DNA of 62,551 nucleotides, counting the filler, from Diploschistes diacapsis (Eukaryota): assembly GCA_023645945.1 (NCBI GenBank). It is 21 parts of 21 records of this genome, joined end to end, with 100 filler letters (N's around TTAATTAATTAA, not from the genome) between each part and the next. Parts side by side here need not be neighbours in the genome. Positions count along the whole stretch, not along the records: positions 7,817 to 31,542 come from JALAIB010000256.1; 20 more parts are not named here. The stretch is one strand, 5' to 3'. Positions 1,958 to 61,860 of this stretch are shown here, in pieces. The notes below the pieces were generated by a model. The model was given only the letters and a program-made list of their open reading frames with translations, searched no databases and was not told the DNA's origin. A program made the translations under genes and the position numbers. Position 1 is the first letter of the stretch; each line of letters opens with the position of its first letter.

Positions 1958-3299
1958 ATCCATTTCTTTATTTTTAAGGTATATGCGTATAAGTTCGAAT
2001 TATTATTATTAGATTTCTTTTTTTATGATAAAAGTAATCCGTTTTTTGGATAAGATGTTTATTTTATTATTATTTTCGTGAATAAAAAAAATTTATTAAA
2101 TAGATAACTCGTAGTTAATAAATAATTAATTAATGGTATAAAAAGTGATTTTCTATAATAGAAATAAAAGTAATCGATTAGGTTTAGTAGCGGTTTAATT
2201 GAATTTCGATGGTTGACGAATGGTCGAATGGATTTAGAAGTAGTTCGGCTGGATCTCGGTGATTATCGAAGATATCGAAATGATTCAGCGGCGATAGGTT
2301 GAATATCGATGATTGTCGAAAGATTAAATCGATTTAGTAATAGATTTAGCTGGATATCGATGATTAATAGATGTCGGTTAAGTTCAGTAAGGGTTCAACT
2401 GAATTTCAATAGTTAACGAGGTTTTCGATTAGATCTAGTAGCGTAAATAACGGTTCTATTAGGTATCGAGGGTTAACGAGATGATCGAGAAGGTTTAGCG
2501 TGGTTTAGTTGAATGTCGATTATTGTCGGGAAATATCGAGATAGTTTAACGTGGTTTAATTAATTTTCGATAATGGATAAAATCGAAAGGGTTTAATAAC
2601 GAAAGTAACGATTCTATTAGGTTTCGAGGATTGATAAGAGATTTAATTAGATTTAGTAGAGAAGGTAGCGGCTTTATTGGGTGTCGAAGGTTATTAAGGT
2701 GATCGATGGGGTTCAGCGTGGTTTAGTTGAATTTCGATATTATTAAAGAGAGAAAGAAAGTTTTTTTTTTTGGTCTGTATAGATGATAATCTGGATTTAA
2801 ATATTTCTTATTTAGGCTTATTTTGGGCCAGCGTAATAAAAGCCCGCGTTCTTTTAAAGTAGTATAACTTCTATTTTTGAATTAATTTATTTTAGGGTTT
2901 TATAATTTACATCTTAGGTTTTCGGATTTTTTCGATTTAGGTTTTTTAGATAAGGTTAATGTATCGGTCCCGCGTTCGTAACCGTTTTAATTGTCGGGAA
3001 GATTTATTTTTAATAATTAAAGACGAAGTGATTCGAGTAAATTAATCCGGGCTTATAATCTATTTAATAACGTAATAGATATATTAAAGTTTAAAATTTT
3101 ATCTTATAAAGATATTTTATTGCGTAAATTTTTATATTTTACGGGATCCGTTAAGTTTTATTATTAATACTATTCCCGATCGGTTTAGTTAGAGTATTAA
3201 AAGGTTTAGTTAAATTGAACCTCGGAGTTCAGCTGAACTGAACCCCCGACTGGAACTTAGTCGAACTGCCAGCCATGCCTTCTGACTGTCTGCTCAACA
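1958..3299 (-). mobile_element. Ty1/copia 5' end: LTR family C (3061-3299), PBS and degenerate internal region with tandem repeats
   Basis: Minus strand starts TGTTGAGCAG. The LTR is followed by GATTATAAGCCCGG, a RIP form of the GGTTATGAGCCC copia PBS. Imperfect internal repeats at ~2170-2750. Confidence 0.72.
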
Positions 3300-3329
3300 C
3301 TTTCGAATAATATTTAATTGAATTAAAAA

Positions 3330-3478
3330 CGTAACTATTAAAATACACGAATACGGACACCGTAATAAATAATTTTCGACACGGACACTAACACGGACAC
3401 GGACACTACGGCTAAAAATTTCAAAGCACGGACACTACCACGGACACGGCCGTGTCAGTGTCCGTGACGGCCAGCCTA
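3330..3478. mobile_element. Terminus of family D non-autonomous TIR element
   Basis: ACACGG-rich array ending in ACGGCCAGCCTA. Confidence 0.8.
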
Positions 3479-3811
3479 GCTGGGAGTTCGACTGAGTTCC
3501 AGTCGGGGGTTCAGTTCAGCTGAACTCCGAGGTTTAATTTAACTAAACCTCCTGGAATTCTGACTAGACCGATCGGGAGTAATATTAGTAATAAAACTTA
3601 ACGGATCCCGTAAGGTATAAAAGTCTACGCAGTAAAATATTTTCATAAGATAAAATCTTTAAACTTTAATATATTTATTACGTTATTAAATAGGTTATAA
3701 ACCCGAATTAATCTATTCGAATTACTTCGTTTTTAATTATTAGAAATAAATCTTCCCGATAATTAAAATGGTTACGAACGCGGGACCGAATACGCTAGCC
3801 TTGTTTAGAAG
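3479..3811 (+). mobile_element. Ty1/copia 5' LTR (family C, truncated), PBS and leader
   Basis: Inverted copy of ~2942-3274. PBS GGTTATAAACCCG at 3693-3705. Confidence 0.75.
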
Positions 3812-3911
3812 NNNNNNNNNNNNNNNNNNNNNNNNNNNNNNNNNNNNNNNNNNNNTTAATTAATTAANNNNNNNNNNNNNNNNNNNNNNNNNNNNNNNNN
3901 NNNNNNNNNNN

Positions 3912-4296
3912 GGAGTGTGGTAGGAGAAGAAGATAGATCAGTTATAGGTCTTGGACTGTTTCTAGAAAGAAGGTTCTTTAATGATAGAAGTAACGAATAT
4001 AAATTAATCCTAAATAATAACTAAAGATATTTATAAAAGTAAACACGCCCTAAATTTATAAAGGCCATAACGACGTTTTTATATAACTAACAGCTCCCTT
4101 AATAAAGTAAATAAATAAATGAATAAAATTACCGTTCTTTCTTTCTATTTTCGGTTGAGTAGAATAATCTTTCAGACCTTCTACTCGTCACGTGACCTAT
4201 GTCACCCTCATTGGACTATATACAAAGAGTGGTTGGGACGTGCCCGATTAGCTGTTGCGTGCCAAGTACTACCGCCTAGTACGTTGGATCGTAACA
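3912..4296 (-). mobile_element. LTR family B (partial)
   Basis: Ends GGATCGTAACA. Similar to 238-692 and, inverted, to 32766-33106. Confidence 0.8.
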
Positions 4297-5520
4297 TATA
4301 AGATCTAAACATTTAATGTTTAAAAGATTATTAGAATTAATTCAGTTAAATTTAAAGAAGATAGAACGCTTATTTTTCAAGAAATAAGACTATTTAAAAG
4401 TTATAGAAAGGACGATAACGTAATATTCATCCGAAAGCCACCGGGACGTCCAGCCAACAATTTAATATCTGATATTGAAGGTATCAACGACGGATTAATT
4501 ACTTACGTTAAGGACGCATCAACGATAAAGACAAAGGTTCAGCTAAATCACACTGAACTGTTACCATCTACTCCTTATAAAGATTACAACACCCTAAAAA
4601 CCCCTGTTCCCGTTCCTTATGATCAAGCCGAGCCAGATAATAGTAGCCGACGGTTAATACAGAAGTTCCTACGGGTTGAAGTTTTTAAGAAAGAAAATAT
4701 AAAATCAGAACCTAAATTTGAACCTATTGAACCAGATATACTAAAATCTATTACGTTAATAACGAACATTATATACGTCATTAATAATCTATCTACGCAT
4801 ATAATACCCGTTAACGTCAAATTAACAACGTCTAACACGTAGGATTCTTAAATAATAAACGATATAAACGCCGCGTCAATAATTATAACCGTTTAAAGCA
4901 TTAAAGAGTTATATAACACGAATTCCGTTATTAATAAACGATAACGGGATGTCGAATATTTCTTATTAATTAAAATATTGAGAAATTATATGGCGCTTAT
5001 AATCAATAAATAAAAGATAACGAACGACGTTGGTTTAAAATCGACCCGTGTCAGCATCTTAAGGAACTATAGGGAAGCCGTAAATGATCTAATCTTCGGA
5101 CAAGAATAAAAAACAGTAGTAAAGAAAGAAATTGATTTTTTGTTATTAAATCAGATCTAGACTGAATTACTTAAACCATTTAAACCTATTAATATTATAA
5201 GCTTAAAATAGGTTTTGGATATTAAGTATAATTTTAATGGCGATATTAAAAGGTTTAAGGCTCGATTAATCGTAAAAAGGTTCTCGTAAAGACAAGATAT
5301 CGATTTCGATAAAATATTTATTTCTATTATTTAAGTCGACTCGTTACGGATTCTACTGGCGGTTATAACAACTAAAGATCTAGAATGTCATTAAATGAAC
5401 GTCAATAATACGTTTATCGAAGTATCGTTGACATATCAGATCTACATAACCGTATTAGAAGGATATAGCGTTCTAAAAGGCACCGTGCTTAAAATTAATA
5501 AAAGCTTATATAAGTTAAAT
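4297..5520 (+). mobile_element. RIP-degraded Ty1/copia pol fragment (integrase-RT spacer and start of RT)
   Basis: ~5240-5320 reads GDIKRFKARLIVKRFS*RQDIDFDK, a RIP form of the copia RT motif KARLVAKGFSQ..GIDFD. Multiple stops. Confidence 0.88.
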
Positions 5521-5765
5521 TAGGCTGTCCGTCACTGACACTGACACGGCCGTGTCAGTGACACGGACACTGACAATGTCAGTATCCGTATTTTAGATTT
5601 TTTAGCTGCGGTGTCCGTGTCCGTGGATTCACGGAAGTGCAGTGTCCGTATTAATATTAATATTTTAAAATTTTTAATTGTAGTATCCGTATCCGTGTTT
5701 TTAATATAATGTAATATCCGTATTAATATCCGTGCCGAGAAATTTTTTATTATAATATCCGTGTC
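5521..5765. mobile_element. Family D element end inserted in copia RT
   Basis: TAGGCTGTCCGTCACTGACAC terminus followed by a CCGTGT array. Confidence 0.82.
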
Positions 5766-5865
5766 NNNNNNNNNNNNNNNNNNNNNNNNNNNNNNNNNNN
5801 NNNNNNNNNTTAATTAATTAANNNNNNNNNNNNNNNNNNNNNNNNNNNNNNNNNNNNNNNNNNNN

Positions 5866-7716
5866 ATTCTTAGATTTACGTATTATATCCTTTAATATAG
5901 TTTGCGAATGATTACGCTTTCGAACGCTATTTATAGTTAAATAAAGTTCCTTTAAGTTATCTATAGCGATTATTAGTTTTATATATGTAACCTATAATAT
6001 CGTAAAAAATGAACGTAAGAAATAATACGTACCCGATATTTAAAATATTTTATTATCGTTACCCTTTTCCAAACCTTCGATTATCGAATCATAACCTAAA
6101 AAAAAAAGTATATTATTCTATATAAAATCAAAATCTATTTCCTATAATATCTCGACAGGATCAATCTCGCTAATAAATTCTTCTTTAAATTCTGGATCGT
6201 CGGCCGTTTTAATATATTCTTCTTCCTCCTCTTCCTCGCGCGTAGAATTAGGATCTTAGGGTAAATAACGCCTTCGCCGATTCGTGATATTAGAATCGTC
6301 GGGTTGCCGTAAATAATATCCGATAACGAAAGTCTTACGGATAATTAAATCATGCAAACGAGATCGTCGATATATAATAAGATCTCGACCGCGATTAAAT
6401 ACCCTCTCAATATTAACCTTCGAGATTAAAACCGCTAGGACATCACGCGTCATTCGCGCCAGCTTCGGAACTATTTATTCATTAATACGCCACTATTTAA
6501 GAAAGTTAAGTTCCTTATCTTTATTATAAGTCACGTTACCGTCCAAATATTATAAAGCTTAAGTTCGTTTATTCTTTATAATTCGTTTCGTTTAATAATT
6601 AATTTTAAAATTAATAAAAATTGTTAAACCTGACGTAACGTTAAGCGTTCTCGGTCGATAAATATCACGTTAATAATATTTTTTAAAGAAATTTGTAAAT
6701 TCCTTTTTATATCGACGTTGATATTTTTCATTATTTAGAAATTTATTCTTGTCTTAATCCTATATAGAATCAGTTAATATACTAATAACTAAACTTTAAT
6801 ATTATTATCTTATATAATAATAACTTATTGTTTAAATCGAGAACGGTTGTAAGATTATAAAGAAATCCGTTTTAATTTTTTGTTTTAAAATAATATTCTC
6901 CGATCTTTACGATGGCGGCCTTAATCGCGGGAATAATATCGTTATAAGACCGCTTATGTTTAAATAACCTATCCTTAGATTTTATTAATTGGTCCTCGAA
7001 GTGATCTATAATAGCATATAGAAGATAAAGGAGCGATATAAAAGAAATCCTCGAGATCGCGATAAAATATCCGTAAGTTTTATTAAAGGTTATAGAACGG
7101 AAGTTATTAATCGAATATGAAACTATTCTTCATCCGTAACTTTAAGTTTACGTAACTTGTCTCGGAGATTTCCGCTTAAATCCTATATTTCTTATTTAAG
7201 CTATCTTACGATCGCATCCTTTTTATAATATGCTTGAATGATCATCTAATACGTACTCTTCTAGCGAACAGTGAAATCTTTTTGAATTATCGAAGGTTAT
7301 TTTACGGTCATGTCTCGTTATAACGTCAGAAAACGTTCGTAACGGGTAACCGAAGAATTAATCATATTTGTGAAAATACGAATCTATTATAATTAATATT
7401 TCTTCGTAAGAATTGAGCGTAAGAATTTAAAATTTATTTTAACGATTATATTTATAGGGCCTATTGTTACCGAGATTTTTACGATACGCGAGTTATTGTT
7501 AAACTCGTTCTCGTCGTTGGCCGGAGCTTGAATATCTAGTTTATTATAAAAAGCTTTAATTACGAGTTGAATAACATGCGCAAGATAAGGTATATTAAAT
7601 CTATCCGGGTCTTAATCGGTTCTATTCTTTCTTATATATTTTATAAGAATATTACGCGCGCGGATAAAATTAGTATTATTATTACTTATTATTCTAAGCA
7701 ACCGTGAATATAGATT
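5866..7716 (-). mobile_element. RIP-degraded hAT transposase
   Basis: Minus strand shows IPYLAHVIQLVIKAF (CxxH motif, ~7550-7595), DFTVR*KST (RW motif, ~7250-7285) and the C-terminal dimerisation motif PKLARMTRDVLAVLISKVNIERVFNRGRDLIIYRRSRL (~6350-6470). Confidence 0.88.
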
Positions 7717-8077
7717 NNNNNNNNNNNNNNNNNNNNNNNNNNNNNNNNNNNNNNNNNNNNTTAATTAATTAANNNNNNNNNNNNNNNNNNNNNNNNNNNN
7801 NNNNNNNNNNNNNNNNGGGGGGGCTGGGTTGGTAAGAGGGCACCATGAACCTATTTCCCTATATAATAATATCGTCTTTCCTTCTAGGCCTGTTTACTTT
7901 GTTCGAAAGATAGGTATCTCACTCAAACACTCTCAAAAATCACCATCTTCTTTTTCCTTTCGCGGGTCGTTTTCTGAATTGTACTAGTACATTTCTTTTC
8001 CGATACTTCAGTCTATTTGTTCAATCGTTTTCATTACCCTCAGCCAAAACTTTGTATCAAACCACAGATCCGGCATC

Positions 8078-9142
8078 ATGGTTGTCACTAGCAAAGTTCT
8101 TGGACTTGCTCTTTTGAGCGCCCTGTCGCTCGCCGCCCCCTTTGAGGAATACTCCCTCGCTGCTCGTAACGCCGATGCCGTTGCTGAAGCCTTGCTAAGA
8201 TTTCATGGACTTGAGACCCGTAATGCTGAGCCAGAGGCCTCTTTCGACCTAGAAGAGGATGCTTACTTCCAGGTTAGTTGCACAGCTAAATCATCCTCTT
8301 GCTTGGCTGACATGTCCATAGGCCCGTGATGCTGAGCCAGAGGCTTATCCCGAAGCCGCAGCCGAGCCCAAGAGCAAGAGTAAGCAGAAGAACAGCAAGA
8401 AGGCTCGAAAGGCCGAGCGTGAACTCAAGCAAATAAAGAAATCCTTGAAGCCTCTCCACAAAGCATACCAGAAGCACCACGAGGGCGCGTCATTCACCAA
8501 ATTTGTCAAGAGTCTGCCAAAGGACATGAAGAGGATGCAAAAACGCAGCAAGCGTCTAAGCAAGCGTGTCAAGTCCCTGCGACAGATCAACAGGAAGCAG
8601 AAGAAGCAGATGAAGAAGTTATCCAAGAAGCTCAGCCAATACAAGAACTTCATGGCCCAGAACAAGTCGATGGCCACCAAGTTCAAGAAGTACCAGGAAA
8701 AGCACTCCAAGCGTGACGCCATTCCCGATCCAGAGGCTTTCGCTGAGGCTGACGCCTACGCGATGCCCGAGGCATTGGCCTACCCTGCTCCCTGGGCCTA
8801 TGCTGAGGCTGCCGACCCACCTGCTCAGCCACCAAAGCATGAGGACAAGAAGAAGAAGGAAGATGAGAAGGAGAAGAAGAAGAAGAAGGGAGGAGCCGAG
8901 AAGAACAAGACGGGTGCAGAGAAGGGCCAGACAAAGGCCGAGAAGATGGTAAGTGAACTCCTTCTGCGCCGAAGCTCAACAGTCACTAATTCATCTCACA
9001 GGAGAAGCTCGAAGAAGCGGAGGACAACATCCAGGACCAAGAGGACAAACTAGATAAAGACGAGCCCAAGAAAGACAAGAAAGCGAAGAAAGCTGACAAG
9101 CCCGTTAAGGATGCCAAGAAGAAGGAGGACGATTCAGACTAA
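8078..9142 (+). CDS. Secreted 320-aa precursor with Kex2/Ste13-type processing sites and a Lys-rich cationic segment (exons 8078-8272, 8322-8948, 9002-9142)
   Basis: Hydrophobic signal peptide (VLGLALLSALSLA-AP). Two phase-0 GT..AG introns with branch sites GCTGAC and ACTAAT. Four R/KR sites each followed by X-A/X-P dipeptide runs. Confidence 0.88.
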
Positions 9143-10035
9143 AGTACTTCTTTGAACCCGGATGGTGTATGAATTATTGTCTTCTTTTGCATCAGCGACG
9201 GCGCTAGGGGGTTGGCCTATGTCTGAAAAATACACGACATGTTGGCTTGACCGGGGTCTGATCATGGGGGACGCATGAAACTTTTCCATTGAACATAATC
9301 TGCTGTACAGAGTGGTCCACCACCACGAATTTTCCAATACCCTACTATGTTGTCGAAGCATTCCTTCCAATATGTGTCTTCATATATTATATATGGATAC
9401 CTTTTTCAAACACCAGTTCGTAAAATTCGGCCGCTTGCTATGGAGTATTTGTCCATGTTTGGTCACAAGTGCCTCAAGAAGAGCTCCTTGGCGGCAAGTC
9501 CCATTCGTCAATCATTAACCGGTTGTCGTTTTTCATGCAGACTGCAGGTTGCAATTATATTATTTGCTCCAAGAAAATGCACAGGAAATGCACAGGAGTT
9601 TGAAACGCCAACAGCAATTATTCCAACGGCACTTGCAAAAGCGCCCCATCAGCACGCGCCACAACCTGTCTTCTTCCTTGGCTCGCTTGTACCGACGACG
9701 GACCACCCATGGATGCGCTACCTGACAACGGGGTGCCGCTTATTCTGACCGTTATCTTGGCAGTATGCAAAATGGGGTGCACACACACTATACGGCGGAA
9801 ATTAATAGTGCCATAATTAATGGCTGGAGCAGCAAGCAAGATAAATAGTCTACTTAAATTTTAAGTGTTTTTGCAACGCATGTCACCGCACCGTGTGATT
9901 TCGTGTGCCTTCCTTACATAGTTATAAGCCGGATCAGCTCATCCACGTCATGTCATGAAGTATCTAATACCCGTGCACATGTGAATGCAAAAGCGTCCAC
10001 CAGAACCCATCCGAACACCGTGCTCTCCGCAATAT

Positions 10036-11159
10036 TCATACTTGCTTGCTCTCAGGCTTGGCAAAGGTCGCCGCTACGATCAACGGGAACACCACCGTAG
10101 CCTCTGCATGCACCTTGACACTCTCCGCCGTAGCCTTGATCTTCCCCCAACTGACCGCCTCGTCCGGCCTGGCGCCGGCATCGCTCCCATCGTACTCCTG
10201 TGCGGTGTTCACGTACACCGCATAATCCGCTCCGTTCCGCATCAAGCACGCGTTTGCGATATGATGCTTGACGACCCCTCCCCCCAGGATGATCATGCCC
10301 GCCCTCTTCGCCGCCATGGCCAGACTGTTGATCTCCCGTATGTCCCTTGTGATGCTGATGTCCAGCACTTTGGGAGACGACCGGAAGGTGTGGAAGAAGA
10401 GCATGTCGCCCAAACTCCCGTCAGTCAGCGCGGGGCAGAAGACGGGAATGTCGTTCTTGTACGCCCAATAGTAAATGGACTCGGGATTGTCGATCTCCTT
10501 ACCCAGCCTGCGGATGACGGTGCTAGGAGTCCAAACGAGCGGCTCTTCAGCGCTGCGAGAGGCCTCCTGCTCCTCGAGCATGGCGTCGAGAATGGGGATG
10601 ACCCAGTCTTCGAAGGCGCAGTAGTTGCTGTTGGGCACGATGAGGTTGCCGATGCGATTCATGCCCTTTGCGCGCAGGTCCGCGCCGCGGAGGTGGAAGG
10701 AGCCGAGATAGGTCGGGGCCAGGCATTTGATTAGGTCTTCCTCGATGCCGCCGGCCGTCGTCACGATGGTGGAAACGTGCTTGTGCTGCACGAGCCAGCG
10801 GAGGGTGGAGCGGAGGCCGGAGGACACGAGGTTGGAGGTGTAGCCGAGGAAGATGGTGGCGCGGTCGCCCGTCTCTGGGTCGCGCCACCTTCGCTGGTGG
10901 AATCAGTCGAGTGACGTTGACTACCGGTGGCTGCGGAGAGGCTTACCATCCCGTCTATTATCCGCGTGGCCTCGGATACGGCGCTGGCTTGGAACCCCAT
11001 GTGGGCCATGCCCTTGATTAGCTCGCTAACTGTAAGCTCCTTGTCCGCATGCTGATCGAAATCTATCCCGCCGACTTGCAGCATGTCGGCCTCGACGGGG
11101 TCGGAGGGCTTTAGGACCGCAGTCGTTGCCGTTCTGGGGGCAGAGTTTTCCCCGTCCAT
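10036..11159 (-). CDS. DYS1: Deoxyhypusine synthase (intron 10894-10946; start may be an upstream ATG at 11180 or 11201)
   Basis: Motifs [60 protein letters not shown]. Confidence 0.96.
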
Positions 11160-11924
11160 TGTTTGCTCTTGAGGAGACATACTGGATTCCGTGTTTTGCA
11201 TGGAGATTTTCCGTATCCCCAAACATCTACATACCGCAACAGCTTCTTGGGCGTGAGAGCTTCAGCGATCCGCGAGGCGCGCTGCCAAAGAAAACTCCGC
11301 ACTGCTAGTAATTTACTTGCTCAGATTCTCGACAATTCAAAAGTACTTCTATGTGCTCCATTCATGTTAGCCTAGATTATTCCAAACTTTGATATAAATT
11401 TGATGCAGAGGATAGTATCAACCCCTTCTTGATCGTTTACTGTCTTCTGCAACTAGCTATGGTCGTAAGCTGACCTCTACCGAATCCTACAAAAGCATTT
11501 GCCCTTGTACCCTCGCGAAATGACCAACTTGGAACTTCTCGCAACCCAATTTTGATGAACAAATAAGGCACAACAACCAGGTCTACAATAAACGCTCAAT
11601 ACTCCATATACCAAAATAACACTATTCCCAGAAGTACCACCATATCAGGAAAAGAAAAACTCGGAGCTTTTTTTGCGCTCTTCCCTTGTAGGCAGCGGTT
11701 ATTGTGACCGTTAATTTTGGTAAATTACAGACGCTAAGCTCGGTTGCCTCGACAATACAAAGCTACTTGGATGTTTGTTGTAGGAATTGAAACACCTACA
11801 TTACTTTTCAGCCAGAGTAAAACATTACATATTCTTTGAAATCCTTTACACTCCATATTGCACTTCCTCTCACCCAATTTATATCGCGTTAACTATCAGC
11901 CTCAAAAGTTTAATATCAAGCTTT

Positions 11925-12141
11925 TGGAACATCCTGAACGTTTGTGGGTTCAAGGGCTGAACCCCCTAGGGCTGTAGGGCTGACCTGGGGAAGTATTTAT
12001 ACCTCGCTACTTCCCATCTAGTTAGTTCTGCACCTTTTCGAATCTGAACCATTCAGCCTACAGATGTCTAGTTACACGTAATCCTTCCGGATCAGGCTCA
12101 GCCCCCGGTAGTGTAGCACTTATTCCTGTAGGGGCGTTCTA
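11925..12141 (+). mobile_element. Solo LTR, family A
   Basis: TGGAAC...GTTCTA. TSD GCTTT at 11920-11924 and 12142-12146. Confidence 0.92.
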
Positions 12142-12159
12142 GCTTTTTGGGTTTAAAGC

Positions 12160-12314
12160 TGTAAGGCCTGCGGGGTTACACATCTGCCTCGGCTGCCACA
12201 GCCACGCACCTACATATAGTGTAATAGGGAAACAGTGCTTTCGGGGTTCCTGAAAGTTAGTCTTTTGGCTCAGTGGGATAGCGCTACCTATTAGGCACTA
12301 CCCCCGCTGTTACA
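12160..12314. mobile_element. Short solo LTR of a different family (155 bp)
   Basis: TGTAA...TTACA ends. TSD AAAGC at 12155-12159 and 12315-12319. Only copy in the window. Confidence 0.75.
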
Positions 12315-12919
12315 AAAGCTTAACTCCGTAATAAAATAAAAAAATAACGGCATAACCTTAGCGTGGACGGATATTACTAGTGCCGAGAATGATCGCCCAA
12401 GGCGGGTTTCGCGTGGCGCTTGCAGAGGCGGACTTTGAACAGAACACTCGCTTGCCTGTTCATTCGTGTGCGGTTTAAGTATTAAGTCGAGTGGCTGTGC
12501 AGCGATAGCATGGAAGTTTCATCATGCCTTGACCTGTAGGTTGTAGAGTGCAAGATCGCTGTCGATATATTTGGAAGGTTGCCGGCATGGGGGGTTGCAA
12601 GCAAGCAAGGCTGAAACTTCATTTTCGCGGCAGAAAGAAACTTATGCGACACTACTAATGCCATTTACACCAAAAACTCTCTAATAAGAATGCCCTTTCT
12701 TCCCGTTGATTGGAGCCTCAGGTTGTGCCGTAGGAGTCCCTCTTCCTCTTGGCTGTGCTAGGACTCCCTATATACCACCTAGTCCTGCCAAAGCAGACGT
12801 GATATCATCCTGCATTTTTCACTCTGTATCTATTTCAATACCTTCAATGTTACTATCACCATTCACATATAATATGCTGCTGTTCGACGACATCAAGTAG
12901 GCATCGTTAGCAAGCACCC

Positions 12920-15561
12920 ATGTTTTCGCGACATAATCATCCATATATCCAACTCGACGAGTCATTTCTAGACACTTCCTACAATCCCGATTATGACACG
13001 TCCAGACAGTCCGACAATGGCATTCAGCTGCAAGACCTTGGGCGATTCCGGTCGCTCAAAAGGCACCCTTATAAAGCGCTGGGAACACCGACGGCGAATC
13101 TCGAACAATCTACTTCGCCCTTAAGATGGCCATCCAGCAGTAAATCGCGCCCCCAATGTGATACTTACAAGCCCTTGCCCGCAGCCCCTCGTTCAAGATG
13201 GTCTGGCTGGAGGTTTACGGTCGCCTCTGGGAGTTTGGCCTCCGTTGTCGTGCTCATCTGCAACATTGCCTTGTTGGGCTGGTCCTACAATTTTCCCAGG
13301 AGCAACACAAACAATATTTTGCTATATCAGGGTGATTGTGGCGAAATGAAGAGGATAGATACCCTATCACATTTGTTAATAAATGTTCTTAGCACAATCT
13401 TGCTCGCAGCTAGCAACTATGCAATGCAAGTCCTTGTCGCCCCTACTAGGGCCAATGTCGACAAAGCTCATCCTCTGGGAAAGTACGTGTTTTGCCCCCC
13501 TCATGGTATTTATGACCAGGAGCTTATGGCATCCAGAGTTCTCGACATTGGTATCTCTGGTTTTGGCAACTGGCGATTCATGGGCTGGAACAGGCGCATT
13601 TGCTGGCTGAGCCTCACTCTATCAACTATCCCGCTTCATTTGCTGTGAGCCTGGCATTCTACATGCATTATTCTTCCCCGAGACCACTGCTAATCATATC
13701 AGCTATAACTCAGTCATTTTCTCAACAACGTCAGCCATCAACTATCAGGCCTACGTAGTTTCCCAAGACTTCCTTGGTGGCGCTCCATATAGTTCGTCAG
13801 ATTCATCATCTACTGGAGTTTTCTTTTATTCCGGAGCTCAGGAATCGGGTTTGACGATACAGCAAGCTAATAAAACGCTACTGGAACTGTATACGAAAGC
13901 AAATAATGGCTCTTTGAAGAATGGGTCCATGCAAAACATGACAAACTCGGATTGCATAGCAGCATTCAACCAAAATTACGTACCTAATTACGCTAGCGGT
14001 ATGTTCAACTACTATAATTTGCGAATTACGAATTACTACGGAGTACTGCAAGATTGCTGATAGATTGAACTAGTGCTTCTTGTAACCAACATGACCAGAA
14101 AAGAGGCCAACGGCTCATTATTGAACCTTTTCGCGCATCAATCTGCATTAGCTACTTCGGATCTCTACTGGTTTTGTGGTGCCCAAAGACCTCTGTCTTC
14201 GACGTGTAACCCGGCGCCAACAAACTTCACGCTACCATATTACTCAAACACAAACCCCAACGGAAACAGTTTAATATCAGGAACTACCCACGTTCAATAC
14301 TGTTTGGCCAACCCAGCAGAGCCTCACTGCACAGTCGAGTTGATACCTGGGCTGCTTTACGCGGTTATTCTCTGTAACGTCATAAAGGGTCTTGCCTTTG
14401 CGTACCTCACCTTCCTTCAATTTGATCCCCTGATCACAATTGGTCAGGCCGTAGCTTCTTTCTTAGAAAACCCTGATCCAACGACGGAGGGACTGGGCGC
14501 CCATTCGGCAAGAGACGTTCGTGGAGAATGGCTTTCGAATCCACAAAGTGGGACTTACTGGTCGGAGCTTAATCAGGATCATATATATAAGTCTGAACGC
14601 CGGCGATGGTTTTCCGGCGCTTCACCGCTGCGCTGGTTCTTGACATTGCTCGCGTGAGTTGGGTCCCTCTACTTCTTTCATCATCGCATGTTGATACATG
14701 GTTATGCATTTGCTGAAGAAAACCCGTTGATCTCGCATTAGGTGTCTTTCCTACTGGCTTGTTGGGCTCTCACTCCTGCTTCTCATTCAATACAACGGGA
14801 ACCACCTCGTCCCAACCTTTGCCGTGCAGTGGGCGCTAGGCTTTGGAGCTGTGATACCATCCGAGCTCGCCAGCGTCACGCACGATCCCAGCTGGAACAT
14901 TGAGCTTCTGGAGAACGTGCTCCTTGCCAACTTTCCGCAAATCAGTACGTCAAGGGAATAGCAGAACAGAGTTCTAAAGCTAACGTAATAACAAGTATTA
15001 TCCTTCGTGTATGTTTCATACAACGGGCTCTTTACCTGCATGCTGCTGTCGCGCGAATGGGTATCTTATGCCAGATCCCGGAAAGGTCTGCGGGTTCACT
15101 GGCCTAGGGGTGCCCAGCGGGCCACGTACTGGCTATCTCTCCCATACCGCTATTCCATGCCCCTTCTCGTAACCTCAGGCCTCATACACTGGCTGTTGTC
15201 CCAGTCCATCTTTGTCGCTCAGGTCAACATTTACTCAATCGATGGCGACTTGCAAGTGAACGAAAGCGTCAACGCAATTGGATGGTCAGAGCTGGCCCTG
15301 ACGCTATTGCTGACACTGGGTGGTGCAATGATTCTCACCATACTTGGCTTTGGATTTCTAAGGTATAGGCGTGGCATACCCATTGCTTCATCGAATTCAA
15401 GAGCCATCAGTGCAGCATGTCATCCTGTACCTGGAAGATTCGAGGAATCGACTCAGCGACTTCAGTATGGCATTATTTCAGAGTTGGGAGATGGAAGGTA
15501 TCACGTTGGTTTTAGCAGCCGGGAAGTGAAGCCGCTGGTCGAGGGGGATTATTACGAGTAA
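12920..15561 (+). CDS. Multi-pass membrane protein, DUF6536-like (6 exons; introns ~13483-13536, 13645-13702, 13999-14073, 14654-14741, 14945-14995)
   Basis: Motifs LYQGDC..., HLLINVLSTILLAASNYAMQVLVAPTR..VDKAH, SIPLHLLYNS-like, QRATYWLSLPYRY, HWLLSQSIF, SNSRAISAACHP. Canonical splice sites join the ORF pieces. Confidence 0.85.
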
Positions 15562-15923
15562 TGAACATACATAGACTTACCTAATACTACTAAAGTGCAT
15601 AGTCTTACAACGCATGAAGAAAGAGTGTCGAGGACCATTTTGCCCAGTAATGGCCTGATACTGTAACAAAAGTTCCTCCTAGACCTGCAATGCCCGCCCA
15701 GCCCTACCGCAATTCGCTTAGGGTGAAATTAGCTTCCTCCCGCAAATTGCGGGAACACAGAAGCGAAAAATCAACCGCCCTCTCCCAACTTTCAAAGAGA
15801 GAACGGCAGGTCCTGCAAGATCAGGATCCCCAAGGGTCGCTCCTTGACCCTACAATCACCTCTTTTAGATTTGTCGCAATAACGAGGGAAGCCTTCACGG
15901 AAGGCTGAAAGGCGCTGGACAGA

Positions 15924-17294
15924 ATGGCGGACGTCCAATCCAAGGTGAGTGAAGCGGATCTGGGCTTCAATCAAGCAGTAGAACTGGAATCACCCATCGC
16001 TAACCATGTATGCCAGAATATGTACGCGGTTCTCGGTATGCACTACTTTTGAAAGAATTCCGGGCTTCAATTGACTGAAGCCATCAAGGCAATGACTCCG
16101 ATCAAGACTCTGACCGAGAGCCTGCGCCACCCACCAAAGCCATTGACAAGACGCTGCCGCGGTCAGCGAAGCGTGATGCCCCGGATACAGCTCCGGCACG
16201 GGCTACAGCTGGCGAAGGGCGTGGACGTGGCGGACGTGGCGGTCGAGGCGGCGGACGCGGGGGTAGTGAAGGAGGTAAGTCAGGCTGCTTTGATGCAATC
16301 GTTAATTCATCGCTATTCTTGTTATGCGTGACAAACTACATCTAACCTCGGTTATTTCAGCTTTCCAAGACCGAGATGCCGGGAGCACGGCTAATCGCAG
16401 CCGAGGCTACGTCGAGCAGACTGACCGCCCCTACCGTGGTGGACGTGGTGACCGTCCTCCACGCGGCCCTCACAGAGGACGGGATGGTCGTGATGACAGG
16501 CACAGCCACGGCCGGCCAAAGTATAATTTTCAATCCACGTGGCAAGGACAATACTAACTCTCTAAAGTGAACACGTAAAGCAAGCCGATCAATCGTGGGG
16601 TGCTCAAACTGGCGGATCGGAATGGGACGACGAGAAAGCCGGCGAAGAAATAGCAAAGGCTGAAGCAAAGGAAGGGTTCGATACTAGCGTCAACGCGCCG
16701 GTGAACGCAGACGGCGAAAAGCCCGACGGAGAGAGCGGACAGGCCGAGAACGTCCCATCAACCGAGCCCGCCGAGCCCGAAGACCGGAGCAAGTCGTACG
16801 ATGCTTACCTCGCAGAGCAGGCCGAGAAGCGAATGAACCTGGGTGGCGTCCTCAAGGCCCGTAAACCCAATGAGGGAAACAAGATCGACAAGAAGTGGGC
16901 CAGTGCCAAGCCCATCAATCAGGACGACAACGAGGAGGCTTATATTGCCGGCAAAGAAGCCAAGGCGGGGCGTCAACGCGAGCGCAAGGAGAAGCAGACC
17001 CTCGAGATTGATTATCGTTACCAGGAGCAATCGCGCGGCGAGCGTGGCGGACGTGGCGGCCGCGGCCGCGGAGAATTCCGGGGCGGAGATCGTGGCGGTC
17101 GCGGAGAATCCAGGGGTGGAGATCGTGGAGGACGCGGCGACCGCGGCCGTGGTCGTGGTGATTTCCGTGGTGGTGACTTCCGTGGTAGTGACTTCCGTGG
17201 TGGTGACTTCCGTGGTGGGCGCGGTGGAGGACGTGGCCGTGGCGACAATGTCAACATCTCTGACGAGACTGCCTTCCCCAGTTTGGGCGCTTAG
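15924..17294 (+). CDS. STM1: Stm1/SERBP1-like ribosome-associated RGG protein (multi-exon)
   Basis: Spliced N-terminus MADVQSK|NMYAVLG|NDSDQDSDREPAPPTKAIDK. Later KSYDAYLAEQAEK, long RGG/DFRGG repeats and a C-terminal DETAFPSLG. Confidence 0.85.
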
Positions 17295-18470
17295 GGCGTT
17301 GCTTGCATCTAGTGCGGAATGCTGCTTCTTATGAATTGACTGTATCGATGTATTGAGTGCAGTTGAGATCTGAATTCTGAAAACAAATGGAGATGTCACT
17401 TTTAGGACCAATCAAGGCGATAGCGTTCCGGAGCTGGTGCCAAATGTGAACCCTTTCTTTAATCTAGCTTCACTTAGTCTTGCTTTACTGCCGATTTTGC
17501 CGCAGAATTGCTAGGCAGTGGTGGCTTCTACGATCAGACCTGTCATTACGAAACTGTTGCCTACAGATATTGTTTTCTAGCTTCCGGCCTTTAAAATCAA
17601 GCATCTGTATGATAGACAGTCAACTGTTCCACATGTCGAGGGCTCGGCAAGAGGACATTACGACCGCAACATGAAAGCAAAGAGAATCTGCTTCCACCCC
17701 CCATCTTCAAGCGCGGTTTTATCCCCAGCAGGAGGTCCATCTTTTTTTGCGACTTCTCTTCCTGCTCCCCTCCTCTCTGCAGGTCCTCGAACGCTAGGCA
17801 TAGCTTGCCAAGCTGCCTTTGCTTCAACATCGGTGCAGTAGGCTCTTTTTGACGGTACAACTTTCCGTGGATGGCCAGTTGAACTACATGGTTCGTAGTA
17901 TGCTTGTCTCGTTTTGAAAGAAGCTTCCTATCCTTGGGCATGCAAGAGAAAATAGAATCGTGGCTTGTCTTGTTGTTGCCTTCTTGGTCTGTATATTGGA
18001 TAGAATGTAGCAACCCATGTGGTATCAGCATCTCCAGGTGCTTGTTGTCTAGTCGTCCAGCTGCTAATGCTGGCCTCCTCCCCTGTCCTATAGCGGCGCT
18101 TCCAGTATGGGCGATCCTGTGGCGGTGCAAAGATTGTGTACCACGGCCGCGTTGCGAATAACTTTGCATGCGCCTCAGTATGACGTAGAGCCCCGCGGTT
18201 GGATGGATTGAAGTTTCAGGTTTGGATGCTGCGACGGTGCGCAACAGGTAGGGTTATTGGTTTTCTTAACCGTGAGCTTCTTGGAAGTACGTGCTAGGAT
18301 GCTTGCTTCCCATTTTTCTTGTCTAAGACCGGTTGTGGTGCGATATAGCTCGCTGACTTTTCCTTCTACGTTCTCCTGACTCAGCCTTTCTCTTCCAGCA
18401 ACCCAGGCACGATACGCACCCATCGTCGCACCATAACCTTTCCTACTATCATATCTCGAAACCACCAACA

Positions 18471-20480: not shown

Positions 20481-21244
20481 AGTTATCCTGGAGCCGGATA
20501 ACTTGGTAGCCGTAGCAAGCGGGACTTGACCGACACCCCTATGCAGCAGCAAAACCTTGCTGAAACCGAAAGAAGCCTTCAGTATCTTGGGGCGGTGCTT
20601 GGTGTGTGAAGTGTCATTAGGAATGCACGGGGCGCGTCGCATGTGGGGTTTAGCGGCTTGGTTGGTTGACCACGGTCCCCCCGCCCCCCCTCTCGGGGAA
20701 GTTGAAGTGAGCCAGTGAGGGGCACCCGAGGGTGTTCGATGAGTACGGTATGGTACTTGATCTTGATTTACAGAACGAGATTTTCGAATTCTATCTATAA
20801 AGCTGACTTGAACATGGCTGGAACATCTTGAACATCTTCATGTACCCTACTACCACTACAGAATCTCTACGATATAAGTTTGAATGTAGAACCGACACGG
20901 CGGCTGCAGACGCTTATGCACCGCAGCAAGGTTTGATTGAAACGTGCATTTAGTGGGATAGCTGTGGCTTTGGGGTGCGTGAGCGGCCGCTAAAGATGGG
21001 CGGAACCTGTCAAAGCCGGGGGAGTTTGAGCGAGCGACTCAAGAGATCTCCTACGACTCATCTTTATTCCTGCAGCCAATCACACTCGAGTTCTACTTGT
21101 GCCCAATCCCACACACACACATGTACAGTCTCTTCAACCTCAACCTCACCTACTTCGTACCGTAATGGCTGCTTGTTACTCCTTTTGTGGCCGTACTTCC
21201 CAAACTTAACAGTCCACCACACGCTAGATGCAGAGTGATAAGGA

Positions 21245-34880: not shown

Positions 34881-35085
34881 TTATCGTATAATTATTATTT
34901 GTTTTAATTATTCGATGTCGTAGTGTTTTCGCCGTTAAAAAGCGCGTTAGCGTAAAAGACGGATTATATTATTCGATTAAATAAATTACGTATAATACGC
35001 TCGAAATAAATCGAATTATTTTTAATAATTTGAAATCGAGCTGTTACGAGTCGAAACGTTTAAATAAGTTTTATAAATATTAAAT

Positions 35086-35441
35086 TAGGCTGGCCGTTTC
35101 GTGCCACGGTCATTAACACGGACACTGTAGCAAAATTTTTTAAAACACGGACATTAACACGGACACTAACACGGATATTACATTTCCGTGAATCCACGAA
35201 CACGGACACCGCAATTAAAAAATTTAAAATACGGACATTAACTCGGACACCGTAACTAAAAAATTTAAAACACGGATATTAACACGGATACTATATTTCC
35301 GTGAATTTATTAACACGGATATTGCACTGTAGTAAAAGCACGAAAACACTTTTTTTTCAATATTTTTAAAATTATCACGTTTATTTCTTACGCTTTTATT
35401 TTTTAAAATTTTTTTTTAAACACGGACACGGACACGGACAC
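35086..35441. mobile_element. Family D element (truncated by contig end)
   Basis: TAGGCTGGCCGTTTCGTGCCACGG terminus and ACACGG array. Confidence 0.85.
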
Positions 35442-35541
35442 NNNNNNNNNNNNNNNNNNNNNNNNNNNNNNNNNNNNNNNNNNNNTTAATTAATTAANNN
35501 NNNNNNNNNNNNNNNNNNNNNNNNNNNNNNNNNNNNNNNNN

Positions 35542-35790
35542 AGATTATACGTTTTATATAAATTAAGTTTCCTGCATCGTCTGCGTTAATAATAAATATA
35601 GCCGAAAAAATTCGACGCGAAAGAATTTAATTTAATCGAATTTAGAAATCACGATCGCGAATTTTTAACCTATTAAAAAAAGTAAGAATCGCGATTTTAC
35701 AAACGATTTCTTAAAATTATTAATATTTAGACGAGATAAATCAAGTCGAATAAATTTAATACGATAAATTACGACATTATATAACGATAA
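35542..35790 (+). mobile_element. pogo/Fot1 transposase fragment
   Basis: Reverse complement of ~53320-53560, which lies in a TIR-bounded Fot1-like 5' end. Confidence 0.7.
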
Positions 35791-35799
35791 TTCCACGAC

Positions 35800-61830: not shown

Positions 61831-61860
61831 AAGTTTACTTCTTATTTATGATATTGATTC

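What the first reader, a model, noticed from the sequence alone, without database searches (positions are those of the whole stretch)
8078..9142. Secreted Kex2/Ste13-type precursor predicted to release a hyper-cationic helical polypeptide
Seen: the ORF track splits this gene, but splicing gives a signal peptide and four Arg-ended sites (AR, TR, AR, KR). Each site is followed by an unbroken X-Ala/X-Pro dipeptide run: NA-DA-VA-EA; NA-EP-EA; DA-EP-EA-YP-EA-AA-EP; and 16 in a row (DA-IP-DP-EA-FA-EA-DA-YA-MP-EA-LA-YP-AP-WA-YA-EA). The segments between are LLRFHGLETR, SFDLEEDAYFQAR, a 115-aa Cys-free stretch (8370-8714; by hand 35 K + 9 R vs 5 acidic residues, heptad-like hydrophobic spacing, four more internal KR sites) and a K/E/D-rich tail. 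Established: kexin cleavage followed by dipeptidyl-aminopeptidase trimming matures alpha-factor and fungal KEP peptides, and X-A/X-P trimming also activates promelittin. Inference: the acidic spacers mask a membrane- or polyanion-binding (antimicrobial or effector-like) product. Unlike typical KEPs, the cores are not repeats.
Basis: partly seen in the sequence, partly recalled or inferred. Interest (0 to 1): 0.8.

Follow-up and report, generated by a model that had tools for sequence, protein, structure and literature searches.

The report
Secreted fungal precursor of a polycationic helix
A fungus from a lichen sample carries a real, conserved gene for a secreted protein built like a pro-hormone or pro-venom peptide, whose likely product is an extremely lysine-rich helical polypeptide of unknown function.

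Summary
Exons 8078-8272, 8322-8948 and 9002-9142 join through two canonical short introns into a 320-aa protein. It has a signal peptide, four Arg sites each followed in phase by 4, 3, 7 and 16 X-Ala/X-Pro dipeptides (0 of 20,000 shuffles reach this), and a 115-aa Cys-free core with 35 K, 9 R and 5 acidic residues.

Searches with the Lys-rich exon found nothing. The exon-1 leader found three relatives, all from metagenomes. One of them, P0005/L001, has a homologous core (39% identity over 94 aa). It keeps KR followed by at least 8 in-phase dipeptides, and dN is well below dS.

Across the four proteins, Arg in the acidic pro-region sits in [LIVF]xxR|[DNES] (P4 hydrophobic at 18 of 22). This is the published LxxR Kex2 motif.

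The dipeptide run directly before the core is not kept in the relative. The acidic parts (-19) cannot neutralise the core (+39). A conserved dibasic cluster that includes LSKR lies mid-core. The core is predicted to be helical and to form a parallel dimer.

No data on RNA, secretion or processing were available. Verdict: a real, lineage-restricted kexin/dipeptidyl-aminopeptidase-type precursor, and a new variant of a known kind. Its function is inferred only.

The parts
8065..8077 (+). 13 nt directly before the ATG, identical in the diverged relative L001 (conserved leader and start context, A at -3)
   Evidence: columns 126-146 are invariant, while the rest of the upstream region does not align well
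8078..8272 (+). Exon 1 (65 codons): signal peptide, two Arg sites with dipeptide runs, and most of the second short peptide
8078..8134 (+). Predicted signal peptide, residues 1-19: one Lys, a 13-14 residue hydrophobic stretch, S-L-A before A-P. The cleavage position is inferred; no SignalP was available
   Evidence: Near-identical in 3 of 3 relatives. Against L001 pN is 0.057 and pS is 0.63 over 24 codons
8165..8191 (+). Arg30 (LAAR) followed by 4 dipeptides NA-DA-VA-EA
   Evidence: The Arg and 4-6 dipeptides are kept in 3 of 3 relatives
8219..8239 (+). Arg48 (LETR) followed by 3 dipeptides NA-EP-EA
   Evidence: At the matching site the relatives have 12 (P0004), 3 (P0005) and 0 (P0006) dipeptides
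8273..8321 (+). Intron 1, 49 nt, GTTAGT...CTGAC...TAG; its removal joins two different frames
   Evidence: The spliced junction restores an F-x-A-R|D site that is contiguous in the intronless relative L001 (alignment)
8322..8948 (+). Exon 2 (209 codons, P0001)
8325..8369 (+). Arg67 (FQAR, spanning the exon 1/2 junction) followed by 7 dipeptides DA-EP-EA-YP-EA-AA-EP
   Evidence: This run is NOT kept in P0005
8370..8714 (+). 115-aa polycationic core (net +39), predicted helix-break-long helix with a heptad hydrophobic stripe
   Evidence: Homologous to the P0005 core. Predicted parallel in-register homodimer
8529..8567 (+). Dibasic cluster inside the core: KR, KR, KR and KR, the last in LSKR|V
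   Evidence: P0005 has RR, KR, KR and LRNR at the aligned positions
8709..8810 (+). KR195-196 followed by 16 in-phase X-Ala/X-Pro dipeptides (8715-8810); X is never Pro
   Evidence: P0005 keeps KR plus at least 8 dipeptides. Over 17 aligned spacer codons pN is 0.20 and pS is 0.81
8811..8948 (+). First part of the K/E/D-rich tail. The tail is 92 aa in all, net +2, with no Arg
8949..9001 (+). Intron 2, 53 nt, GTAAGT...ACTAAT...CAG
   Evidence: After splicing the K/E/D composition continues; if the intron is read through, the composition changes to R/S/T
9002..9142 (+). Exon 3: the rest of the tail and the TAA stop (9140-9142)
   Evidence: A close relative's contigs carry an in-frame 3-nt deletion at 9116, which removes one Lys codon
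9188..9206 (+). 19-nt 3'UTR element identical in L001 (1025-1043) within otherwise diverged UTRs

Best explanation
This is a real, lineage-restricted fungal gene for a secreted prepro-protein matured by the late-Golgi kexin, Kex1 and dipeptidyl-aminopeptidase (Ste13-type) route.

Proposed steps; all processing steps are inferred:
1. The 19-residue signal peptide takes the protein into the ER.
2. Kexin cuts the disordered acidic pro-region at the [LIVF]xxR sites (R30, R48, R67) and cuts after KR196. It may also cut at the mid-core dibasic cluster.
3. A Kex1-type carboxypeptidase removes the C-terminal basic residues.
4. A Ste13-type aminopeptidase removes the X-Ala/X-Pro dipeptides two at a time until it meets a pair it cannot cut (LL, SF, KS, AD).

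The main product is a Cys-free polycation, either one 115-aa chain (+39) or two halves of about 50 aa (+16 and +17). It is helical with a heptad stripe and may pair as a parallel coiled coil.

The most likely action is binding to polyanionic surfaces: microbial or algal envelopes, extracellular matrix, or nucleic acids. The acidic pro-pieces would partly shield it during export.
For: Gene reality:
- The introns are canonical and join different frames.
- Codon use is biased as in the neighbouring gene: AAG 56 to AAA 10, GC3 0.66 against GC2 0.34.
- In the contigs of close relatives, exons carry 6 differences in 963 nt. The flanks carry 17 in 486 nt plus two 1-nt deletions. The only exon indel listed in the main contigs is a 3-nt in-frame deletion.
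- Against the diverged relative L001, dN/dS is about 0.33 over 211 codons (dN 0.45, dS 1.39). The signal peptide has pN 0.057 against pS 0.63.

Processing logic:
- Four of four runs of 3 or more dipeptides start right after Arg (0 of 20,000 shuffles).
- X is never Pro in any of the 30 dipeptides, read from the run sequences printed. From recall, Pro at that position would block this type of enzyme.
- P4 is L, I, V, F or M at 18 of 22 pro-region Arg across the 4 family members (composition expectation 0.23, binomial 9e-9). P1' is D, E, N or S at 18 of 22. These sites are partly homologous, so they are not independent.
- LxxR, KR and RR are the Kex2 motifs used for pro-domain effectors (passages of bioRxiv 10.1101/2020.05.27.120113).
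- XA/XP repeats after the Kex2 site are the STE13 signature (passages of PMC6339444, and PMC9769878). The latter paper also detected peptides ending at a single Arg.
- KR plus an in-phase dipeptide run is kept in a relative whose core is 39% identical.

Cargo:
- AlphaFold2 on a single sequence gives helices at 19-51 and 56-132 of P0001, with pLDDT 91-98 over residues 71-120. The relative gives the same pattern, with a low-confidence pro-region.
- Heptad periodicity is reached by 0 of 5,000 shuffles here and by 3 of 5,000 in P0005.
- The homodimer model scores ipSAE 0.63 against a best control of 0.05, with contacts agreeing at 96% or more and partner pLDDT at least 79. This mark was reached by 21 of 30 proteins solved as pairs of one chain and by 0 of 23 solved as single chains. 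For eukaryotes the figures were 17 of 29, but only 1 of 7 with no older solved relative. Such a pass can come from likeness to solved coiled coils.
Against: - No RNA holder was listed, so expression and splicing are not shown. No signal-peptide predictor could be run.
- Three of the four flanking sites are monobasic. Kex2 cuts such sites less well than KR (recalled), and another protease may do it.
- The dipeptide run in front of the core is absent in P0005, and most Arg sites in P0005 and P0006 are not followed by XA/XP. Aminopeptidase trimming is therefore not a fixed feature of every site.
- The first run (ADA[IV]AEA[LI]L) is conserved as sequence and is predicted helical at low confidence in the relative. 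It may be kept for reasons other than trimming.
- The spacer after KR is more conserved (pN 0.20) than trimming alone would need.
- The acidic parts total -19 against +39.
- Among near-identical strains, 4 of the 6 exon differences change the amino acid (D61G, I154T, K164E, S194T). Core dN/dS is about 0.5.
- The core is only 21% strongly hydrophobic. From recall, this is low for membrane-lytic helical peptides.
- A +39 chain pairing in register would face strong charge repulsion, which the model may ignore.
Confidence: 0.6

Rival explanations
1. The protein is secreted but is not trimmed or shredded as proposed. It acts as a whole, or as large fragments. The X-Ala/X-Pro tracts would be stiff, extended linkers, and the polycationic coiled coil would be a structural or adhesive component of the wall or extracellular matrix, binding acidic polysaccharides or mineral surfaces.
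For: - The spacer sequence is conserved beyond the A/P positions (pN 0.20 over 17 codons).
- A parallel dimer is predicted for the intact core, with the dibasic cluster buried in the helix.
- Most Arg sites in the relatives lack XA/XP runs.
- The sample types are lichen and rock metagenomes.
Against: - All four runs start exactly after Arg, and X is never Pro.
- The [LIVF]xxR|[DNES] motif recurs while the sequence between the sites diverges.
- The number and length of the runs vary freely between relatives (4/12/1, 4/3/1/0/0 and 6/0...). This fits disposable spacers better than structural linkers.
Confidence: 0.2
2. The short acidic peptides of the N-terminal region are the bioactive products, as in KEP- or pheromone-type signalling peptides. 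The Lys-rich domain would be only a carrier or export aid.
For: - Relative P0006 has 3-4 tandem units of the form D-[FLI]-F-D-[AGS]-E-L-E-E-R. This is the repeat-between-cleavage-sites pattern that defines KEPs.
- STE13 signatures are described as typical of pheromone-like KEPs.
Against: - In this gene the two short peptides are unlike each other, and the aligned peptides differ strongly between relatives.
- The core is conserved: 39% identity and 71% positives over 94 aa with 1 gap.
- The core makes up 115 of the 301 residues that follow the signal peptide.
- The Pfam MF_alpha_N match is below threshold (12.5 bits against 22).
- No DUF3328 or tyrosinase gene was found in the ORFs scanned downstream.
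Confidence: 0.1
3. The protein is not secreted. The hydrophobic N-terminus is incidental, and the protein is an intracellular Lys-rich nucleic-acid-binding or nucleolar-type coiled-coil protein.
For: - The K/E/D-rich tail and the Lys-rich helices resemble nuclear protein composition (recalled).
- No secretion data exist.
Against: - The N-terminal 19-24 residues are the most conserved part of the family, with pN 0.057 against a near-saturated pS.
- They have the shape of a cleaved signal peptide.
- The Arg plus XA/XP pattern has no known role in the cytosol or nucleus.
Confidence: 0.05

Closest known systems
Kex2-processed pro-domain (K2PP) fungal effectors such as SnTox3, ToxA and SIX1/4/6
   Same: A signal peptide is followed by a disordered pro-domain that ends in LxxR, KR or RR and is removed by Kex2, and then by the mature domain (passages). 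Here LAAR and LETR fit LxxR, FQAR has Phe at P4, and HSKR and LSKR are dibasic. LSKR is the same tetrapeptide as at the SnTox3 junction.
   Different: Here the pro-region holds 3 motif sites, and 5-7 in relatives, rather than one junction. Some sites carry Ste13-type dipeptide runs. The cargo is a Cys-free polycationic helix, not a folded Cys-rich or beta-barrel domain. No host or effector role is known.
KEPs and alpha-factor-type precursors (Kex2, Kex1 and Ste13 processing)
   Same: Signal peptide, cleavage after basic sites, and X-Ala/X-Pro dipeptides removed by Ste13 (passages of PMC6339444, and PMC9769878).
   Different: KEPs are defined by repeats of near-identical short cores between dibasic sites. 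Here the pieces are unlike each other, most flanking sites are monobasic, and the main product has 115 residues. The dipeptide run of 16 is much longer than the KREA/KRDA-type spacers described.
Ece1 / candidalysin of Candida albicans
   Same: A non-repetitive secreted polyprotein is cut at KR sites by Kex2 and trimmed by Kex1, releasing a helical peptide that acts on membranes (passages of PMC7471981).
   Different: No sequence relation was detected; none of the searches returned a named protein. No Ste13 step is mentioned in the candidalysin passages I read, and its peptide is short and hydrophobic at one end. This core is long, +39 and weakly hydrophobic.
Insect pro-peptides trimmed by dipeptidyl peptidase: promelittin, and the apidaecin and hymenoptaecin multipeptide precursors
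   Same: A cationic product is preceded by acidic X-Ala/X-Pro spacers, with RR/KR sites plus stepwise dipeptide removal. Hymenoptaecin products have 97 aa, a size like this core (passages of PMC3415428). Promelittin was seen only as the Kreil 1980 entry in two reference lists; its content is recalled.
   Different: Different kingdom and no homology. The insect precursors repeat one product. Here the longest spacer lies after the cationic core, not before it.
Dikaritin RiPP precursors (ustiloxin type), also sought in lichen fungi
   Same: Signal peptide plus Kex2 sites. The lichen study found candidate precursors without repeats (passages of PMC12048977).
   Different: No DUF3328/UstY, tyrosinase or methyltransferase was found among the 43 ORFs scanned (16 long ORFs in the contig; 27 shorter ORFs in 9143-21200). 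There are no repeated short cores. The upstream side is unknown, because the contig starts 261 nt before the ATG.

Membership tests
KEP (Kex2-processed repeat protein) | N-terminal signal peptide | tested here: met
   Read from the sequence: one Lys, a 13-14 residue hydrophobic stretch, and S-L-A before the predicted cut. Strongly conserved in 3 of 3 relatives. No SignalP was run.
KEP (Kex2-processed repeat protein) | Repeats of identical or near-identical core peptides | tested here: not met
   The pieces between the sites are unlike each other. Only relative P0006 shows 3-4 tandem acidic units.
KEP (Kex2-processed repeat protein) | Dibasic (KR/RR/KK) sites flanking each core | tested here: not met
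   Only 1 of the 4 flanking sites is dibasic (KR196). The others are AR, TR and AR. Four further KR lie inside the core.
KEP (Kex2-processed repeat protein) | STE13 signature (XA/XP after the cleavage site; optional, pheromone-like subclass) | tested here: met
   Runs of 4, 3, 7 and 16 dipeptides lie directly after Arg.
K2PP effector (Kex2-processed pro-domain) | [quoted passage not shown] | tested here: met
   LAAR (R30) and LETR (R48). The pro-region of the relative has low pLDDT and is mostly without structure. 234 of the 301 residues that follow the signal peptide (20-320) lie after R67.
K2PP effector (Kex2-processed pro-domain) | Pro-domain actually removed by Kex2 | not testable with these tools
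   Needs in vitro Kex2 digestion or expression in a kex2 mutant.
K2PP effector (Kex2-processed pro-domain) | Acts as an effector on a host or partner organism | not testable with these tools
   No expression or interaction data. The organism is known only from metagenome runs.
Alpha-factor pheromone precursor (Pfam MF_alpha_N) | Match to the family profile and repeated mature pheromone units | tested here: not met
   PF05436 scores E 0.14 and 12.5 bits against a cut-off of 22. No repeated units.
Dikaritin RiPP precursor | DUF3328 (UstY) gene close by, and repeated cores | tested here: not met
   0 of 43 ORFs scanned hit DUF3328, tyrosinase or methyltransferase. The hits were deoxyhypusine synthase, DUF6536, Stm1_N, DUF3074 and Myb. 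The upstream side could not be tested because the contig ends there.

The most novel reading that the evidence does not exclude
This is a family confined to lichen- and rock-associated fungi that makes a self-shielded polycationic coiled-coil weapon or effector. An acidic pro-domain is shredded at 3-7 [LIVF]xxR sites, and a Ste13-erasable spacer of up to 16 dipeptides follows the core. Together they keep a +39 to +45 helix harmless until the late Golgi. The released dimeric polycation then acts on the photobiont, on bacteria, or on the anionic matrix of the thallus. It would be a fungal counterpart of promelittin or hymenoptaecin with a cargo of no known family.
Probability: 0.25. Interest if true: 0.75.

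Novelty: new variant of a known kind. Interest (0 to 1): 0.55.

Why it matters
Among the examples met in the papers read here, gene-encoded fungal antimicrobial or effector peptides are Cys-stabilised folds (copsin, defensin-type peptides), short repeated KEP peptides, or candidalysin. From recall, the wider field looks the same.

A long, Cys-free polycation with a heptad stripe, made by the alpha-factor processing route, would add a new cargo class to that route. It would also give lichen biology a concrete secreted candidate to test on photobionts and the lichen microbiome.

There is a practical lesson for genome scans. Searches with the Lys-rich part found nothing in 5.8 billion and 1.84 billion proteins, although a relative with a pairwise E-value of 6e-20 was in the first collection. 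Only the signal-peptide and pro-region query found the family.

Tried and rejected
RNA evidence:
- No RNA holder was listed for 7900-9300, so splicing and expression could not be checked with reads. Only DNA contigs of three runs were laid.

Own genome:
- No whole genome is held for this window. Paralogues and the Kex2/Ste13 genes of this organism could therefore not be sought. tblastn of the three exon proteins against the window found only the gene itself.

Homology searches that gave nothing:
- Word-index search with exon 2: 0 at E <= 0.01 among 1,596 candidates.
- phmmer of 8322-8816 against 1.84 billion representatives: 0 at E <= 0.001.
- JGI metagenome loci with exon 2: 595 pattern matches, 0 confirmed.
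- ESM Atlas: no usable hit.
- Pfam: nothing above threshold for the three exon proteins.
- PDB sequences: best E 0.21.
- Searching with P0005 returned only P0005 itself.
- These blanks do not prove absence. P0005 was missed by the search, whose collection holds it. It was also not returned, whose library may not contain it.

Other checks:
- Rfam over the whole window: 0 matches.
- Earlier findings of this scan: nothing by place, by words or by sequence.
- Tail homology to L001: BLASTP was not significant (E 46). The only link is a shared 7-residue word, AKKADKP, read by eye, plus similar composition.
- The five-sequence alignment A1 was too gappy for a locus scan. The four-sequence alignment A2 was used instead and returned one locus, L001.
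Whether these two carry a Lys-rich core is unknown.
- A fold search of the models was not run, because a long helix would match any coiled coil.
Full report
WHAT IS IN THE SEQUENCE

The window is not one stretch of genome. It consists of 21 pieces joined by linkers of 44 N, TTAATTAATTAA and 44 N. The gene lies 261 nt from the start of the only long piece (7817-31542, 23,726 nt, GC 0.53). Nothing upstream of 7817 can be taken as its neighbour.

The first in-frame ATG is at 8078, with A at -3 and G at +4. Two short introns join three ORFs that lie in different frames:
- Intron 1 is 8273-8321 (49 nt) and reads GTTAGT...CTGAC...TAG.
- Intron 2 is 8949-9001 (53 nt) and reads GTAAGT...ACTAAT...CAG.
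The joined CDS is 963 nt and encodes 320 aa.

Codon choice fits the neighbouring deoxyhypusine synthase gene. AAG outnumbers AAA 56 to 10 and GAG outnumbers GAA 25 to 9. GC3 is 0.66 against GC2 0.34.

- Runs of X-[Ala/Pro] with 4, 3, 7 and 16 dipeptides begin directly after R30, R48, R67 and R196.
- The 115-aa stretch 8370-8714 has 35 K, 9 R, 1 D, 4 E and no Cys, with pI 11.3.
- It holds four internal KR plus the terminal KR.

The pattern is far beyond chance:
- None of 20,000 whole-protein shuffles, and none of 20,000 shuffles within 32-residue blocks, reached the longest run, the count of Arg-preceded runs or the total number of dipeptides.
- In the six-frame translation of the whole window the next longest run has 7 dipeptides.
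- Of the 16 places where Arg is followed by 3 or more such dipeptides, 4 are in this gene, and the other 12 have exactly 3.

The hydrophobic residues of the core follow a 3-4-3-4 spacing. The hydrophobic moment near 103 degrees over all 115 residues was reached by 0 of 5,000 shuffles.

THE GENE IS REAL AND HAS RELATIVES

Searches with the Lys-rich exon 2 found nothing. Pfam and PDB gave only sub-threshold matches.

A search with the 65 residues of exon 1, allowing longer proteins, found three relatives, all from metagenome sources and all unnamed. They are P0004 (83% identity), P0005 (58%) and P0006 (58%).

All three share an almost identical signal peptide and an acidic, Arg-punctuated region after it.

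P0005 is encoded without introns on a 1,158-nt contig, L001, and it continues into a Lys-rich core:
- The core is 39% identical and 71% similar to ours over 94 residues with one gap (pairwise E 6e-20).
- The spliced F-x-A-R|D junction of our exons 1 and 2 aligns with a contiguous V-F-A-R|D in this intronless relative. This supports the model for intron 1 independently.
- Between the two genes synonymous sites are near saturation (pS 0.63), while pN is 0.34 over 211 codons.
- pN against pS is 0.057/0.63 in the signal peptide, 0.37/0.68 in the pro-region, 0.40/0.57 in the core and 0.20/0.81 in the spacer.

Contigs of two further runs carry near-identical copies:
- Exons show 6 differences in 963 nt.
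- The flanks show 17 differences in 486 nt, plus two 1-nt deletions.
- One exon indel is in frame: a 3-nt loss of one Lys codon at 9116. A 1-nt deletion at 8154 appears only in a minor contig (24.8 of 156.4 depth), and I did not follow it up.
- Coverage by these contigs is incomplete. X2 covers 29 of 30 bins and X3 covers 17 of 30.
- Four of the six exon differences change the residue: D61G, I154T, K164E and S194T. Protein-level constraint among close strains is therefore not evident from these few sites.

WHAT THE FAMILY SAYS ABOUT PROCESSING

Arg sites in the pro-region:
- Across the four proteins the pro-regions hold 22 Arg.
- The residue at P4 is L, I, V, F or M at 18 of them. The composition expectation is 0.23 and the binomial probability is 9e-9.
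- P1' is D, E, N or S at 18 of 22.
- The four P4 exceptions are our R41, which no relative keeps, and three Arg near the ends of P0004 and P0006. Those ends may be intron read-through.
- The sites are partly homologous, so the binomial figure overstates their independence.
- Still, the sequences between the sites diverge while the motif stays.

This motif is the LxxR Kex2 motif described for fungal pro-domain effectors, alongside KR and RR. The same paper describes the pro-domains as disordered (passages of bioRxiv 10.1101/2020.05.27.120113). AlphaFold2 gives the pro-region of the relative low confidence and little structure.

X-Ala/X-Pro repeats after the Kex2 site are the accepted STE13 signature (passages of PMC6339444, and PMC9769878). 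The latter paper also detected peptides that end at a single Arg.

It gives a mixed answer:
- The first site keeps 4-6 dipeptides in 3 of 3 relatives.
- The second site has 12, 3 and 0 dipeptides.
- KR after the core is followed by at least 8 in-phase dipeptides in P0005, the only relative whose sequence reaches that far.
- The run in front of the core is absent in P0005, where LVAR is followed by DDDDEKPKK.
- The later Arg sites of P0005 and P0006 have 0 or 1 dipeptide.

THE CARGO

AlphaFold2, run on a single sequence, predicts a helix, a short break and then a 77-residue helix. pLDDT is 91-98 over residues 71-120 of P0001, the mean is 72 and pTM is 0.41. The relative gives the same pattern.

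A two-copy model places the chains in a parallel, in-register coiled coil. The closest contacts are between the same residue in each chain: 79, 83, 86, 93, 97, 100 and 104. The scores are:
- ipSAE 0.63 against a best control of 0.05.
- Contacts agree at 96% or more, and partner pLDDT is at least 79.
- The mark was reached by 21 of 30 proteins solved as pairs of one chain and by 0 of 23 solved as single chains.
- On eukaryotes it was reached by 17 of 29, but by only 1 of 7 with no older solved relative.

This supports pairing but does not show it. Heptad sequences may pass through likeness to solved coiled coils, and a +39 chain would repel its copy.

The four internal KR sit inside this helix. 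At the aligned positions P0005 has RR, KR, KR and LRNR. The central site keeps Leu at P4 and Arg at P1 in both proteins, and ours (LSKR) has the same four residues as the SnTox3 junction.

The product is therefore either one 115-aa chain or two halves: 55 residues at +16 and 49 residues at +17, before removal of the C-terminal basic residues. I cannot decide which.

The acidic parts total -12 (residues 20-81) and -7 (the 32-residue spacer), against +39 for the core. In P0005 the figures are -21 and +45. Shielding by charge can only be partial.

Only 21% of core residues are strongly hydrophobic. From recall, this suits polyanion binding better than membrane lysis.

CONTEXT

Downstream genes are housekeeping or of unknown function:
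- deoxyhypusine synthase (10036-10902, minus strand)
- DUF6536
- Stm1_N
- DUF3074
- a 2,068-codon ORF with a Myb domain

None of the 43 ORFs scanned hit DUF3328, tyrosinase or methyltransferase. A dikaritin-type cluster, as sought in lichen fungi (passages of PMC12048977), is therefore not supported on the side that can be seen.

The DNA is held by a lichen metagenome run that may be the source of this DNA, by a run of a coded organism, and by a rock metagenome run.

MOST LIKELY MECHANISM

Shown by computation:
- The gene model, purifying selection and a conserved signal peptide.
- A recurrent [LIVF]xxR|[DNES] motif.
- Arg-anchored dipeptide runs, with KR plus spacer conserved in a relative.
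- A helical core with heptad spacing.

Inferred:
1. The protein enters the ER and is cut after residue 19.
2. Kexin cuts at the motif sites.
3. A Kex1-type enzyme removes the C-terminal basic residues.
4. A Ste13-type enzyme removes dipeptides until it meets LL, SF, KS or AD.
5. One or two polycationic helices are released, along with a K/E/D-rich tail.
6. The polycation acts on anionic surfaces.

I put 0.6 on the processed secreted precursor. The rivals are an unprocessed structural polycation (0.2), short acidic peptides as the true products (0.1) and a non-secreted protein (0.05).

COMPARISON AND NOVELTY

The gene works like a K2PP effector or an alpha-factor/KEP precursor, and like insect multipeptide precursors trimmed by dipeptidyl peptidase (passages of PMC3415428). 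It also resembles Ece1/candidalysin in being a non-repetitive polyprotein (passages of PMC7471981).

It fails the defining repeat criterion of KEPs and the Pfam test for alpha-factor precursors. It has no detectable homology to any named protein.

The processing logic is known. What is new is the cargo, the multi-site LxxR pro-region combined with Ste13-type runs, and the 16-dipeptide spacer placed after the core.

My literature searches listed no paper on such a protein from lichen-associated fungi. This covers only the open library searched.

I rate it a new variant of a known kind, with interest 0.55. It is a real and striking gene that is restricted to a lineage seen only in metagenomes, but there are no data on expression, secretion or function.

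Noticed in passing
window 1-62551 (linkers such as 7717-7816): The window is a concatenation of 21 pieces joined by N44-TTAATTAATTAA-N44. The piece lengths fall steadily from 1,857 to 1,831 nt, except for the 23,726-nt piece that holds the gene. Adjacency across the linkers is not genomic.
   Followed up: yes
for example window 1958-7716, 33594-39332 and 58790-62551: Most of the short pieces are AT-rich (GC 0.29-0.38). Their dinucleotide indices are TpA/ApT 0.96-1.31 and (CpA+TpG)/(ApC+GpT) 0.46-0.99. From recall, these values are typical of repeat-induced point mutation. They could not be placed relative to the gene.
   Followed up: partly
window 9188-9206 and L001 1025-1043: A 19-nt element in the 3'UTR is identical between the two genes, although synonymous sites are near saturation and the rest of the UTRs barely align. 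It contains a 4-bp inverted repeat around ACGG. It may be a regulatory or RNA-binding site.
   Followed up: no
L001 842-940: The relative's ORF stops at TGA 856-858. Another frame runs on (ORF 767-940) through QP-EP-EA and then a K/D/E-rich end that shares the word AKKADKP with our exon 3. A one-base indel, whether an assembly error or a real change, would link the two frames. BLASTP does not support the tail match.
   Followed up: partly
P0006 (relative, protein only): After the first Arg and a 6-dipeptide run, it carries 3-4 tandem acidic units of about 10 residues, each ending in LEER. This shows that the pro-region evolves by unit duplication, as in KEPs. Its DNA and any downstream core could not be fetched.
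   Followed up: no
P0004 (relative, protein only): The second dipeptide run has expanded to 12 dipeptides, mostly Glu-Ala and Asp-Ala. Run length is therefore evolutionarily labile.
   Followed up: no
window 10036-10902 (-), 12911-14060 (+), 16079-16345 (+), 18357-20480 (+), 21242-27448 (+): Neighbouring genes on the same piece are deoxyhypusine synthase, a DUF6536 protein, an Stm1_N protein, a DUF3074 protein and a 2,068-codon ORF with one Myb domain. None suggests a biosynthetic cluster.
   Followed up: partly
searches: A Lys-rich query missed a relative that is present in the searched collection and has a pairwise E-value of 6e-20. The less biased leader found it. Blanks from compositionally biased queries should not be read as orphan status.
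   Followed up: yes
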